Shown here piece by piece: positions 45,670 to 47,968 of a stretch of DNA of 64,000 bases; position 1 is the first letter of the stretch; every line of letters begins with the position of its first letter. The DNA comes from the human T2T-CHM13v2.0 reference genome, Homo sapiens. The notes below the pieces were generated by a model. The model searched no databases and was not told the DNA's origin. It saw only the letters and a program-made list of their open reading frames with translations. The position numbers and the translations under genes are program-made. The DNA is taken from the NCBI GenBank assembly GCA_009914755.4, contig CP068257.2, positions 31,264,001-31,328,000 on the forward strand, given 5' to 3'.

Positions 45670-46380
45670 AATGGCTTCTAAAGTCTCTCCTGGTTTCTTG
45701 ACATTACAGCTATGGAGTTTTGAGAACAGGACTTCCTCCACATGGTGCTAATGATGCATCCAGCCTACACCTCCCCGGAGGAAGGGGTAGTTGTTTTCAG
45801 CCAGAGAAAACTGATTCCAGCCTGGGCACTGGAAGGTTCAAGTTGATTGGTGACAATTCTTTCCGAGAGGCGGTTATCACTGCTTATTGCCACCCTCAGT
45901 GGTTTGGAATCACTTTGTTGCTGGTTGGAGTAAATGGAAAACATATTTAACTTAAAAAGTGAAACATACAATGCTATCATATTGCACAAGCAAACGTGGA
46001 GAGGGGCAGGGGGGCAACTACTGTTTCAAGATGATTTAAGAATTTGATCAAATGTCTGGCTGCACAACTGCGTGTTTTGAAAGCACCTCACAGATGGGTT
46101 CTATAATTGAGAAATGCATTTGTTCTTTGTTTGGTGCATTTAAATAATGTGATTCAAAGTTTGGAGTTGAATGCCTTTCTGAAATGACTTCCCTCCATCT
46201 CGCACACACACGGTAGTGTGTTTTCACAGAACGGCGTGCAGTGGGGAAAGGACTGCATGCTTTTGGAAAGATGTAGCGCACATCCATGAGAAAATATGTC
46301 AAAGAATTTGCAAACAGACACAGAAAAGTAATAACCAAAAATAAGCATCTGTGAAGCCTTGCTTTGTGTTTAGAAAAGAT

Positions 46381-46440
46381 AGGCCAGGCATAGTGGCGCA
46401 CACCTGTAATCCCAGGTGGCTCACACCTGTAATCCCAGGG
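46381..46440 (+). mobile_element. Two tandem 5'-Alu stubs
   Basis: GGCCAGGCATAGTGGCGCACACCTGTAATCCCAGGTGGCTCACACCTGTAATCCCAGG: the unit GGCTCACACCTGTAATCCCAGG is duplicated. Confidence 0.7.
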
Positions 46441-46502
46441 TTTTTCCAGAAAAACCCTCAGCACCTTTTTGTATCTAGGTCTTCCAAGAAAGAAAACATT
46501 AG

Positions 46503-46930
46503 GACCAGGTGCTGTGGCTCACACTTATAATCCCAGCACTTTGGGAGGCCAAGGCAGGTGGATCACTTGACCCCAGGAGTTTGAGACCAGCCTGGGCAAC
46601 ATAGTGAAACCCCGTTTCTACAAAAAATACAAAAATTAGCTGGGCATGGTGGCATGCTCTGTAGTCCCAGCTACTAGGGAGGCTGAGGTGTGTGGATCAG
46701 TTGAGGCCAGGCATTCGAGAGCAGTCTGGCCAACATGCTGAAACCCTGGCTCTACTAAAAATGCAAAAATTAGCCAGGCATGGTGGCACACGCCTGTAGT
46801 CTCAGCTACTTGGGTGACTGAGAGATGAGAAGCACTTGAACCTCGGAAGTGGAGGCTGCAGAGAGCCAAGATCACACCACTGCACTTCAGCCTGGATGAC
46901 AGAGTGAGACTTTGTCTCAAAAAAACAAAA
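46503..46930 (+). mobile_element. Composite Alu (about 1.4 Alu units, an extra left-monomer-like segment in the middle) with tail
   Basis: ACCAGGTGCTGTGGCTCACACTTATAATCCCAGCACTTTGGGAGGCCAAGGCAGGTGGATCACTTGACCCCAGGAGTTTGAGACCAGCCTGGGCAACATAGTGAAACCCCGTTTCTACAAAAAATACAAAAATTAGCTGGGCATGGTGGCATGCTCTGTAGTCCCAGCTACTAGGGAGGCTGAGGTGTGTGGATCAGTTGAGGCCAGGCATTCGAGAGCAGTCTGGCCAACATGCTGAAACCCTGGCTCTACTAAAAATGCAAAAATTAGCCAGGCATGGTGGCACACGCCTGTAGTCTCAGCTACTTGGGTGACTGAG...CACTTCAGCCTGGATGACAGAGTGAGACTTTGTCTCAAAAAAACAAAAAC. Confidence 0.85.
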
Positions 46931-47366
46931 ACAATACAGAAAAAAATAGCCACAGAGAATTAAAGACATGGCATATTTTTAAGAGCGAAGCACCTCACAG
47001 AAACTGAGAACTCACAGGACTTAATAGGGCGAGGCATTTCAGTGTTCTGAGAACACCGTAGAGCAAACTTCTCCAGTAAGTATTCCTTCCTTAGCATTTC
47101 TGGAGTCCATAGTACTCGAAAAGCTTGATAGAATATTCAGTATCACTAGCTACCAGTGAAAATAAACAACTTACTTTAAAAAGGACGAAGTGAGCATTTC
47201 CAAGTGTCAGGTGATTAGAGCTTCCTAGTGTTCCCTGGAAAGTGGGGCATTTCCCAAAGCCCACTCGCTCTGATCCTGTCCTCTTGGATGGCTTTGGACA
47301 CTAGGACATCATATGGCTTTTCAACATTCCAGGATTCCTGACTTTGGGGGCAGAATCCTGCCCAGT

Positions 47367-47421
47367 GTTTTCTTTTCTTTTCTTTTCTTTTCTTTTCTTT
47401 TCTTTTCTTTTCTTTTCTTTT
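47367..47421. repeat. (TTTTC)n pentanucleotide microsatellite, about 11 units (Alu tail)
   Basis: TTTTCTTTTCTTTTCTTTTCTTTTCTTTTCTTTTCTTTTCTTTTCTTTTCTTTT read directly. Confidence 0.9.
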
Positions 47422-47700
47422 AAGATAGGGTCTTGCTCTGTTGCTCAGGCTGGAGTGCAGTGGTGTGATCATGGCTCACTGCAGCCTTGACCTTCTAGGC
47501 TCAAGTGATTCTCCCACCTCAGCCTCCCTAGTAGCTGGGACTACAGAGCATGCCACCATGCCCGGCTAATTTTTGTATTTTTTGTAGAAATGGGGTTTCA
47601 CTATGTTGCCCAGGCTGGTCTCAAACTCCGGGGCTCAAGTGATCCACCTGCCTTGGCCTCCCAAAGTGCTGGGATTACAAGTGTGAGCCACAGCACCTGG
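47412..47700 (-). mobile_element. Alu SINE, antisense; inverted copy of the Alu starting at 46503
   Basis: AAGATAGGGTCTTGCTCTGTTGCTCAGGCTGGAGTGCAGTGGTGTGATCATGGCTCACTGCAGCCTTGACC...GGGACTACAGAGCATGCCACCATGCCCGGCTAATTTTTGTATTTTTTGTAGAAATGGGGTTTCACTATGTTGCCCAGGCTGGTCTCAAACTCCGGGGCTCAAGTGATCCACCTGCCTTGGCCTCCCAAAGTGCTGGGATTACAAGTGTGAGCCACAGCACCTGGTCC. Its reverse complement shares the private variants ACCAGGTGCTGTGGCTCACAC and CATGCTCTGTAGTCC with the 46503 Alu. Confidence 0.9.
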
Positions 47701-47968
47701 TCCTGATGTTTTCTTTCTTGGAAGACCTAGATACAAAAAGGTGCTGAGGGTTTTTCTGGAATGGGGAACACATGGGTTCTGGTTTTCATATACCTTTGTG
47801 TGGTCTGAACAGGTTCCTCCAATCATAATATGCAAATATATATGATCCTAATGGGCTCTTCCCAAACCCTTTCCAGCTCCAAGACACAGAGCTTGATTAC
47901 CACTTGGTTACAGACTCACAGGAGGATACACAGAAAACTGAATGGACACTGCTGACTCTAATGATCTG

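What the first reader, a model, noticed from the sequence alone, without database searches (positions are those of the whole stretch)
46375..47760. Roughly 1.3-kb palindrome: inverted duplication of an Alu plus about 60 bp of unique flank
GGTTTTTCCAGAAAAACCCTCAGCACCTTTTTGTATCTAGGTCTTCCAAGAAAGAAAACATTAGGACC|ACCAGGTGCTGTGGCTCACAC... at 46441 onward reappears as its exact reverse complement at 47680-47760 (...GTGTGAGCCACAGCACCTGGTCC|TGATGTTTTCTTTCTTGGAAGACCTAGATACAAAAAGGTGCTGAGGGTTTTTCTGG).

The two Alus share private variants (ACCAGGTGCTGTGGCTCACAC and CATGCTCTGTAGTCC). They are therefore copies of one insertion, not independent Alus.

The arms are about 220 bp or longer and are separated by a roughly 750-bp spacer. 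The left arm has since acquired an extra Alu left-monomer segment. Inverted segmental duplications like this can extrude cruciforms and are hotspots for rearrangement and double-strand breaks.
Basis: seen in the sequence. Interest (0 to 1): 0.5.

Follow-up and report, generated by a model that had tools for sequence, protein, structure and literature searches.

The report
Alu-templated repair scar, inverted copy
About 250 bases, made of the front part of an old Alu repeat plus 58 bases of its unique flank, were copied in reverse orientation into a second Alu 1 kb away, most likely during error-prone DNA repair some 5-25 million years ago; it is a real and tidy but ordinary repair scar, not a fragile palindrome.

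Summary
Window 46444-46690 is the reverse complement of 47515-47761: 247 nt with 6 mismatches (97.6%). This includes 58 nt of non-Alu flank, of which 54 nt are identical. No other repeat pair in the window exceeds 86.6%.

The two Alu copies do derive from one insertion. The source is the full-length AluJ-like element on the minus strand (47423-47703), which has a (GAAAA)n tail. The left copy lies inside a second, older AluS-like element. That element's head (consensus 1-34, 46382-46415) and body (from consensus 42, 46678-46918) flank the copy on the same strand. The "extra left monomer" is therefore the pre-existing host Alu, not a later gain.

The right joint is a 14-nt homology, GGGAGGCTGAGGTG. 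The left joint carries a 5-nt filler that forms a 9-bp snap-back hairpin with the copied flank, plus a 23-nt Alu patch. My best reading is one template-switch repair event (SDSA or MMBIR, then synthesis-dependent microhomology end joining) about 12 Myr ago (4-26 Myr).

The spacer is 784-824 bp and the longest perfect tract is 56 bp, so cruciform extrusion is unlikely. If the region is transcribed, the arms would form a 247-bp dsRNA. No ortholog or gene context could be obtained. Interest is low.

The parts
46382..46415 (+). Head of the resident (acceptor) AluS-like element, consensus positions 1-34. It ends at ...TAATCCCAG, the left side of the break.
   Evidence: Local alignment to the Alu consensus gives 28/34. 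The sequence upstream of 46382 is not Alu-like: its score is no better than random window segments. The head would also align to a right-monomer start (36/45), so its assignment rests on context.
46416..46438 (+). 23-nt Alu patch (consensus 12-34) of unresolved origin. It may be a tandem duplicate of the head or a second templated patch from the source Alu.
   Evidence: It matches 46393-46415 at 22/23 and the reverse complement of 47669-47691 at 22/23 (items D2 and I9; sequence).
46439..46443 (+). 5-nt filler GGTTT, absent from the source copy. It is complementary to AAACC in the copied flank.
   Evidence: The alignment starts at 46444, and the source reads ...CTGGAATGGGG instead.
46437..46458 (.). 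Snap-back mini-hairpin AGGGTTTTT-CCAG-AAAAACCCT (9-bp stem, 4-nt loop), created by the filler at the left joint.
   Evidence: strand folding as DNA gives -7.3 kcal/mol, z = -4.2, with 0 of 200 shuffles as stable. The corresponding source sequence does not fold (0 kcal/mol).
46444..46501 (+). Left arm, part 1: inverted copy of the 58-nt non-Alu flank of the source Alu (copy of 47704-47761).
   Evidence: There is 1 mismatch in 58 nt and 54 nt are identical, with 0 chance matches expected.
46502..46690 (+). Left arm, part 2: inverted copy of the first ~190 nt of the source AluJ-like element (left monomer, linker and start of the right monomer).
   Evidence: There are 5 mismatches in 189 nt against 47515-47703. 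It fits AluJo best (88%), as the source does.
46677..46690 (+). Right joint: the 14-nt GGGAGGCTGAGGTG shared by the right monomer of the copy and the left monomer of the resident Alu. This makes a chimeric Alu joined out of register.
   Evidence: One search shows the arm identity collapsing right after 46690. One search shows the resident Alu body aligning from consensus position 42 at 46678.
46691..46940 (+). Body (to 46918) and A-rich tail of the resident AluS-like element.
   Evidence: It is 82% identical to AluSx over consensus 42-282. Non-CpG divergence is 12.6%. The putative target-site duplication (AGAAAAGATAG / AGAAAAAAATAG) is not statistically supported.
46941..47367 (.). Unique spacer between the two Alus. 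No repeat, ORF, RNA family or other feature was detected.
47368..47422 (-). (GAAAA)n tail of the source Alu, seen as (TTTTC)n on the + strand.
47423..47703 (-). Source element: a full-length AluJ-like Alu. Positions 47515-47703 form the Alu part of the right arm.
   Evidence: It is 87% identical to AluJo over consensus 3-281. The flanking direct repeat AAG(A)AAAGAAAACA matches 13/14 on either side; it is low-complexity, so only suggestive.
47704..47761 (-). Source flank: 58 nt of unique DNA 5' of the source Alu. It continues into unique sequence that was not copied.

Best explanation
This is the scar of a single template-switch repair event between two neighbouring Alus in opposite orientation. 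It is not a functional element.

Proposed sequence of events:
1. A break, or a collapsed replication fork, occurred in the older AluS-like element on the + strand. The break lay between consensus positions 34 and 42, inside the recombination-prone Alu core.
2. The 3' end of the right-hand broken end annealed out of register to the right monomer of the inverted AluJ-like element about 1 kb downstream, through the 14-nt match GGGAGGCTGAGGTG.
3. The end was extended for 247 nt. Synthesis ran through the AluJ 5' part and 58 nt past its 5' end into unique flank.
4. The new strand then had no homology to the other broken end. It was joined by synthesis-dependent microhomology end joining. Its terminal AA snapped back on its own TTTTT run and added AAACC(CT), and the new CT paired with the terminal AG of ...CCCAG.

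The result is an inverted 247-nt duplicate embedded in the resident Alu.

Shown here: the anatomy, the direction of copying (right to left), the junction sequences and the relative ages. Inferred: the order of steps, and the enzymes (homologous-recombination or MMBIR machinery, and a Pol-theta-like polymerase).

Present-day consequences are probably nil at the DNA level. If the region is transcribed, the arms would form a 247-bp near-perfect dsRNA stem.
For: - **Direction of copying.** The right element is a complete Alu with a tail, contiguous with unique DNA. The left copy lacks the Alu 3' part and tail, and is bounded on both sides by Alu sequence.
- **Host Alu.** Consensus 1-34 lies left of the insert and consensus 42-282 lies right of it, on the same strand. 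No Alu sequence lies upstream.
- **Ages.** Arm-to-arm divergence is 6/247. Three changes are derived in the left copy, two in the right and one is unpolarised. This fits neutral decay since one event about 12 Myr ago at 1e-9 per site per year (CI 4.5-26). The AluJ source is 6.4% and the AluS host 12.6% diverged from consensus at non-CpG sites, so both predate the event.
- **Right joint.** It forms a chimeric Alu with 14-nt microhomology. [quoted passage not shown]
- **Left joint.** All 5 filler bases are complementary to the adjacent copied flank and give a 9-bp hairpin (z = -4.2) that is absent from the source. This is the snap-back signature of SD-MMEJ (PMC2943611).
- **Uniqueness.** No other repeat pair in the window exceeds 86.6% identity.
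Against: - No orthologous or pre-event sequence could be obtained, so the order of events is inferred from one genome.
- The target-site duplication that would prove the head and body are one element is not significant.
- The head could formally be a right-monomer start.
- The 23-nt patch at 46416-46438 is not explained by the simple model.
- A two-step history gives the same final sequence.
Confidence: 0.68

Rival explanations
1. Two-step history. A longer inverted copy (flank, the whole AluJ and perhaps more) was first inserted into the resident Alu at consensus position 34. A later Alu-Alu recombination deletion between the copy's right monomer and the host's left monomer then trimmed it to the present 247 nt.
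For: The right joint is a typical chimeric-Alu deletion junction with 14-nt microhomology (PMC6071635). It would look the same under this model.
Against: It needs two independent rare events at one site. The deletion would also have to remove exactly the segment that restores the host Alu almost in frame, with only consensus 35-41 missing. There is no trace of additional copied sequence.
Confidence: 0.12
2. An inverted segmental duplication of Alu plus flank landed in ordinary DNA, and the left arm later gained an extra Alu left monomer. The structure is now a cruciform-prone palindrome and a breakage hotspot.
For: The inverted duplicate with shared flank and shared private variants is real.
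Against: - The 'gained' segment is much older than the duplication: 12.6% non-CpG divergence against about 1.2% per arm.
- The arms are under 1 kb.
- The spacer is about 800 bp and the longest perfect tract is 56 bp. That is far outside the range where Alu inverted repeats are fragile in duplex DNA (PMC10164571).
Confidence: 0.07
3. Chimeric retrocopy. During retrotransposition of the AluS-like element, the LINE-1 reverse transcriptase switched template from the Alu RNA to a transcript containing the AluJ and its upstream flank, then switched back. The whole composite would then have been inserted at once.
For: The whole composite lies between the AluS head and tail. Template switching during target-primed reverse transcription is an established source of chimeric retrocopies (general knowledge).
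Against: The arms would then be as old as the AluS insertion. They differ by only 2.4%, whereas the AluS body is 12.6% (non-CpG) from its consensus. The snap-back filler and the 14-nt out-of-register joint are not specifically predicted by this model.
Confidence: 0.03
4. A selected structure. The inverted copy is maintained because the 247-bp hairpin RNA is functional, for example as a dsRNA, small-RNA precursor, back-splicing aid or ADAR target. The low arm divergence would then reflect constraint or arm-to-arm conversion rather than youth.
For: On either strand the arms pair in register over 241-242 of 247 positions. The duplex energy is -505 kcal/mol, against -320 to -430 for other inverted Alu pairs in the window. 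Template switching is known to create RNA hairpins and new miRNAs (PMC8794818, PMC10710096, listed).
Against: - No Rfam family, ORF or CpG island lies nearby.
- All 6 differences break pairing and none is compensated.
- The substitutions are split 3:2 between the arms, as expected under neutrality.
- No evidence of transcription was obtainable.
Confidence: 0.04
5. An assembly or sequencing artefact, such as a chimeric or fold-back read collapsed into the assembly.
For: Inverted fold-back chimeras do occur in some library types (general knowledge).
Against: The arms differ at 6 sites, including CpG transitions. The junctions carry filler and microhomology typical of in vivo repair. Both arms are embedded in coherent Alu and unique context.
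Confidence: 0.02

Closest known systems
Alu/Alu-mediated rearrangement (AAMR) by template switching or MMBIR (Song et al. 2018, PMC6071635)
   Same: There is a chimeric Alu at a breakpoint, a short GC-rich microhomology (14 nt, under 25 bp), a breakpoint in or next to the Alu 5' core, and nearby Alus acting as substrates.
   Different: Catalogued AAMRs are mostly deletions or duplications between direct Alus. Here the partners are inverted, the product is a 247-nt inverted insertion, and only one of the two junctions is Alu-Alu.
Non-allelic gene conversion between neighbouring Alus (Aleshin & Zhi 2010, as cited in PMC8230782)
   Same: A nearby Alu, about 1 kb away and well within the ~10 kb range reported, served as donor of sequence to another Alu, which points to a homology-primed copy.
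   Different: The tract is out of register (right monomer onto left monomer). It runs 58 nt beyond the donor Alu into unique DNA, and it lengthens the acceptor by about 270 nt instead of replacing like with like.
Synthesis-dependent microhomology-mediated end joining / Pol-theta-type templated insertions (Yu & McVey 2010, PMC2943611; Kent et al. 2016, PMC4912351)
   Same: The filler at the left joint is the reverse complement of adjacent sequence (snap-back). It creates a 2-nt microhomology with the other end, and an additional short templated-looking patch is present.
   Different: SD-MMEJ inserts are usually a few to tens of nt. Here it explains only the left joint, not the 247-nt copy. Enzyme dependence cannot be tested from sequence.
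Short-range template-switch mutations that create inverted repeats and hairpins (Loytynoja & Goldman 2017, PMC5453318; Walker et al. 2021, PMC7954356)
   Same: A nearby sequence is copied in reverse complement in one event, producing a perfect hairpin-forming inverted repeat.
   Different: Those events are typically tens of bases copied from within tens to hundreds of bases. This one is 247 nt copied from about 1 kb away and is primed by repeat homology.
Inverted-repeat Alu pairs (IRAlus) as dsRNA / ADAR1-MDA5 substrates (e.g. PMC12695637)
   Same: Two inverted Alu segments under 1 kb apart are predicted to form a long duplex if co-transcribed.
   Different: The duplex is 97.6% paired and extends into non-Alu sequence, whereas ordinary IRAlus are about 80-90% identical (PMC10164571). 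Transcription, editing and UTR location are all unknown. Intronic IRAlus are reported to be non-immunogenic.
Fragile long inverted repeats / palindromes (Lobachev-type Alu inverted repeats; PMC10164571)
   Same: Inverted Alu-containing arms with high identity.
   Different: The spacer is about 800 bp rather than 100 bp or less, and the arms are interrupted by mismatches every 56 bp or less. This falls outside the fragile range in duplex DNA.

Membership tests
Alu SINE (both elements) | A ~280-nt dimeric sequence that aligns to the Alu consensus, with an A-rich linker | tested here: met
   The right element is 87% identical to AluJo over consensus 3-281. The left host body is 82% identical to AluSx over consensus 42-282.
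Alu SINE (both elements) | A 3' A-rich tail and flanking target-site duplications | tested here: inconclusive
   Both tails are present: (GAAAA)n at 47368-47422 and an A-rich run from 46919. The right element's flanking repeat matches 13/14 but is low-complexity. The left element's repeat is not better than A-rich random sequence.
DNA palindrome / cruciform-prone inverted repeat | Highly identical inverted arms | tested here: met
   247 nt at 97.6% identity.
DNA palindrome / cruciform-prone inverted repeat | No spacer or a very short one (fragility is lost by about 100 bp in duplex DNA) | tested here: not met
   The spacer is 784-824 bp. The threshold comes from PMC10164571.
Segmental duplication | At least 1 kb long with at least 90% identity (the conventional definition, from general knowledge) | tested here: not met
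   The duplicated length is 247-267 nt.
Non-allelic Alu-Alu gene conversion | Donor and acceptor are pre-existing homologous elements in proximity | tested here: met
   Both Alus are much older than the copy. They are about 1 kb apart.
Non-allelic Alu-Alu gene conversion | The tract replaces homologous sequence in register and stays within the repeat | tested here: not met
   The copy includes 58 nt of non-Alu flank, is joined right monomer to left monomer, and adds about 270 nt.
Alu/Alu-mediated rearrangement (template switch / MMBIR type) | A chimeric Alu at the junction with short microhomology (mostly under 25 bp) | tested here: met
   An AluJ-copy / AluS hybrid with the shared 14-mer at 46677-46690. 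The criterion comes from PMC6071635.
Alu/Alu-mediated rearrangement (template switch / MMBIR type) | Replication- or break-induced-replication-dependent origin | not testable with these tools
   Sequence alone cannot separate MMBIR from SDSA followed by end joining.
SD-MMEJ / Pol-theta-mediated end joining | Junctional insertion templated from adjacent sequence (snap-back gives an inverted repeat spanning the joint) | tested here: met
   The filler GGTTT completes a 9-bp stem with AAAAACCCT. The fold is -7.3 kcal/mol with z = -4.2, and the structure is absent from the source. The model is from PMC2943611.
SD-MMEJ / Pol-theta-mediated end joining | Dependence on Pol theta | not testable with these tools
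   This is a historical germline event.
IRAlu dsRNA (ADAR substrate) | Inverted Alus close enough to pair within one transcript, forming a stable duplex | tested here: met
   In the minimum-free-energy fold of 46380-47800, on either strand, the arms pair in register at 241-242 of 247 positions.
IRAlu dsRNA (ADAR substrate) | The region is transcribed and shows clustered A-to-I editing | not testable with these tools
   No expression, editing or gene annotation data were available. No promoter-like CpG island lies in the window.

The most novel reading that the evidence does not exclude
The template-switch event created, in one step in a great-ape ancestor, a 247-bp near-perfect hairpin that extends beyond Alu into unique sequence. 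If it lies in a mature transcript such as a 3' UTR or lncRNA, it could be an unusually strong lineage-specific dsRNA: an ADAR1-dependent MDA5 ligand, or a source of small RNAs. It could also be a substrate for a polymorphic inversion of the ~800-bp spacer.
Probability: 0.05. Interest if true: 0.45.

Novelty: new member of a known kind. Interest (0 to 1): 0.2.

Why it matters
In itself it matters little. It is one more neutral rearrangement scar in Alu-rich primate DNA.

It is a clean single-locus illustration of three points:
- Inverted neighbouring Alus can prime a template switch that runs out of the repeat into unique DNA.
- Such an aborted copy is finished by snap-back microhomology joining.
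- An ordinary Alu pair can in this way become a much more perfect hairpin than retrotransposition alone produces.

Loci of this type deserve attention only if they sit in exported transcripts, where they could form immunogenic dsRNA, or if they are polymorphic. For repeat annotation it is a caution: a "three-monomer Alu" can be a repair chimera of two elements.

Tried and rejected
- **Orthologs or other copies.** An exact 27-mer of the unique flank gave 0 hits in metagenome contigs and 0 in genome contigs. No outgroup or pre-event allele was available.
- **Rfam.** A gathering-threshold scan of the whole window found nothing.
- **Gene context.** ORFs of at least 90 aa look like repeat or random translations. 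Pfam on the five ORFs nearest the locus, and on LINE-like fragments, gave no family. No CpG island was found, and CpG observed/expected is 0.21. The gene, the transcribed strand and the species were not identified. A six-frame Pfam scan of the whole window was prepared but dropped, because typical exons are shorter than the 55-codon cut-off.
- **Target-site duplication of the left host Alu.** The AGAAAAGATAG / AGAAAAAAATAG match is not better than A-rich random 20-mers (fraction 0.50), so I do not use it as evidence.
- **Hidden older Alu upstream of 46382** (which would make the 'head' a right-monomer start). No Alu-like signal was found.
- **Inversion with staggered breaks as the origin.** Rejected, because both Alus are collinear with their own heads, tails and flanks in the present orientation.
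- **Reverse-transcriptase template-switch chimera.** Rejected on the age mismatch.
- **Origin of the 23-nt patch.** It matches either candidate template at 22/23, so this is unresolved (note).
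Full report
**1. Check of the observation**

The sequence and the repeat finder confirm an inverted repeat. Its arms are 46444-46710 and 47495-47761: 267 nt, 96% complementary, 784 nt apart.

A gapped local alignment shows that the truly duplicated part is 46444-46690 against 47761-47515. It is 247 nt with six substitutions (46500, 46527, 46571, 46575, 46614, 46641) and no indels, which is 97.6% identity. 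After 46690 the identity collapses.

The first 58 nt of the left arm (46444-46501) are not Alu. A 54-nt stretch of this flank is identical in the two copies, and no match was found in any of 100 dinucleotide-preserving shuffles. Beyond the arm end there is no further homology. The sequence right of 47761 has no counterpart left of 46444, so the boundary is sharp.

The pair is an outlier for this window. Of 262 self-BLAST alignments of at least 150 nt, essentially all Alu against Alu, the median identity is 76% and the runner-up is 86.6%. This pair reaches 96.2%.

- The flank match is not strictly exact: there is 1 mismatch, and the first five bases GGTTT are not in the right copy.
- The arms are 247 nt and the spacer is about 800 bp.
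- Only 494 of the 1318 bases are symmetric.

**2. Anatomy**

The right element (47423-47703, minus strand) is a full-length AluJ-like Alu. It is 87% identical to AluJo over consensus 3-281. It is followed by a (GAAAA)n tail at 47368-47422 and bounded by a low-complexity direct repeat, AAG(A)AAAGAAAACA, that matches 13/14. Its 5' flank runs on into unique DNA.

The left arm is a copy of that flank plus the first ~190 nt of this AluJ. Both copies share every private difference from the consensus, including a 1-nt deletion.

The left arm is embedded in a second Alu on the plus strand:
- 46382-46415 matches Alu consensus 1-34.
- 46678-46918 matches AluSx consensus 42-282 (82%) and is followed by an A-rich tail.
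- No Alu-like sequence lies upstream of 46382.

Head and body are on the same strand and in register. Only consensus 35-41 is missing.

Between head and body, in order, lie:
- a 23-nt Alu patch (46416-46438, consensus 12-34);
- a 5-nt filler, GGTTT (46439-46443);
- the 58-nt flank copy;
- the 189-nt AluJ copy.

The right joint is the 14-mer GGGAGGCTGAGGTG (46677-46690). It is common to the right monomer of the AluJ copy and the left monomer of the host, so the joint is a chimeric Alu joined out of register.

One caveat applies. The putative target-site duplication of the host Alu (AGAAAAGATAG / AGAAAAAAATAG) is no better than chance for A-rich sequence. The claim that head and body are one old element therefore rests on register, strand and context.

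**3. Ages**

The arms differ at 6 of 247 sites. Polarised against the consensus, three changes are derived in the left copy and two in the right. The flank mismatch is unpolarised. Two of the six are CpG transitions. This balanced pattern is what neutral decay after a single copying event predicts.

With 1e-9 substitutions per site per year, the event dates to about 12 Myr ago, with a Poisson 95% interval of 4.5-26 Myr. Other plausible rates shift the estimate to between about 6 and 25 Myr.

By contrast, the AluJ source is 6.4% diverged from its consensus at non-CpG sites, and the AluS-like host body is 12.6% diverged. Both elements are far older than the copy.

It also rules out a chimeric retrocopy made when the host Alu was inserted.

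**4. Mechanism**

The simplest history is a single template-switch repair event, in five steps:

1. A double-strand break or collapsed fork occurred in the host Alu between consensus 34 and 42. From memory, this lies inside the 26-bp Alu core. Song et al. report that Alu/Alu rearrangement junctions are enriched at or near that core and mostly have under 25 bp of microhomology (PMC6071635).
2. After resection, the right-hand end exposes the minus strand as a 3' tail, which is antisense Alu. Because the AluJ is inverted, its sense strand is complementary to that tail. The best exact match is the 14-mer in the AluJ right monomer.
3. Extension from there copies the AluJ towards its 5' end and then runs out into the flank. 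This reproduces window 47515 to 47761, which is exactly the left arm when read on the plus strand.
4. The displaced new strand ends in ...GGGTTTTTCTGGAA and has no homology to the other broken end (...TAATCCCAG).
5. The filler is precisely what a snap-back would add. The terminal AA pairs with the strand's own TTTTT run, and extension adds AAACC(CT). The new CT can then pair with the terminal AG of the other end.

On the plus strand this gives AGGGTTTTT-CCAG-AAAAACCCT, a 9-bp stem with a 4-nt loop. It folds at -7.3 kcal/mol with z = -4.2, and none of 200 shuffles folds as well. The source sequence at the same place does not fold at all. This is the signature of snap-back synthesis-dependent microhomology end joining described by Yu and McVey (PMC2943611). 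It also fits end joining that acts after aborted homologous recombination (abstract of PMC13596132).

A replicative version (MMBIR or fork-stalling template switching) gives the same product and cannot be separated from sequence alone.

The anatomy, the polarity of copying and the junction sequences are shown here. The order of steps and the enzymes are inferred. The 23-nt patch matches both the host head and the source Alu at 22/23, and its origin is unresolved.

**5. Consequences today**

*DNA level.* In the yeast Alu inverted-repeat system, widening the spacer from 12 to 100 bp lowers repeat-induced recombination about 300-fold. Lowering identity to 94% lowers rearrangements about 15-fold. 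Widely spaced repeats become dangerous only within long single-stranded DNA (PMC10164571). Here the spacer is about 800 bp and the longest uninterrupted identity is 56 bp. Cruciform extrusion and efficient inversion by homologous recombination are therefore unlikely, although neither can be excluded at population scale. Inverted Alu pairs are mildly depleted genome-wide (PMC3215922), but this pair has evidently persisted for millions of years.

*RNA level.* If the region is transcribed, on either strand the arms pair in register over 241-242 of 247 positions in the minimum-free-energy fold. The duplex energy is -505 kcal/mol, against -320 to -430 for five other inverted Alu pairs in the window. 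Whether this matters depends on location. Intronic inverted Alus are reported to be non-immunogenic, while those in UTRs with short loops can activate MDA5 (PMC12695637). I could not determine the location.

**6. Context**

The window looks like bulk primate intronic or intergenic DNA:
- It is about 10% Alu (27 segments).
- CpG observed/expected is 0.21, and the only CpG-rich patch is a young AluY, so there is no CpG island.
- It has no Rfam family at gathering threshold.
- There is no convincing ORF, and no Pfam hit near the locus.

Scans of the metagenome and prokaryotic genome collections for the unique flank found nothing. No ortholog or alternative allele was available.

**7. Comparison with known phenomena and verdict**

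The event works like an Alu/Alu-mediated template switch combined with a microhomology joint. It is not a classical gene conversion, because it is out of register, captures flank and adds net sequence. It is not a segmental duplication, because it is shorter than 1 kb. It is not a palindrome, because of the ~800-bp spacer. It resembles the short-range template-switch mutations that create hairpins (PMC5453318, PMC7954356), but it is larger and primed by a repeat.

It is a new instance of a known kind of event. The account of the extra monomer and the fragility claim are not supported.

Interest is low (0.2). The most novel reading still open is a lineage-specific strong dsRNA or a polymorphic inversion substrate. 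It has perhaps a 5% chance, and it could be settled quickly with reference-genome annotation, primate alignments, pangenome structural variants and editing data.

Noticed in passing
It is by far the youngest repeat in the window, and it produces the only CpG-rich patch (observed/expected up to 0.87), which could be mistaken for a CpG island.
   Followed up: partly
window 47368-47417 and 48754-48788: There are two pentanucleotide microsatellites derived from or abutting Alu tails. (TTTTC)10 is the degenerated A-tail of the source AluJ. (ACAAC)7 follows the Alu at 48477-48752. Both are potentially length-polymorphic.
   Followed up: no
window 46416-46438: A 23-nt Alu patch at the left joint matches both the host Alu head (22/23) and the source Alu (22/23). 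Its origin (tandem duplication, loop-out synthesis or an extra template switch) is unresolved.
   Followed up: partly
window 4572-5600 (+), 2025-2195 (-), 52063-52236 (-): Stop-free stretches have translations that, from memory, resemble the C-terminal part of LINE-1 ORF2 (for example ...MRYHLTPVRMA..., ...FIAMLFTIAKTWNQP...). Pfam gave no hit for the 4572-5600 fragments, so this is unverified. The region 4001-6000 also has a strong AT skew (0.275).
   Followed up: partly
window 43434-43704 and 43820-44101 (+): Two full-length AluS-like elements lie in direct orientation only about 115 bp apart. This is the classical substrate arrangement for an Alu-Alu deletion.
   Followed up: no
window 47553-47690 vs 48485-48622: The source AluJ also forms an ordinary inverted pair (78% complementary, 794-nt spacer) with the Alu at 48477-48752. 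In a transcript the left arm would therefore compete with this second partner. The predicted duplex is much weaker (-428 against -505 kcal/mol).
   Followed up: partly
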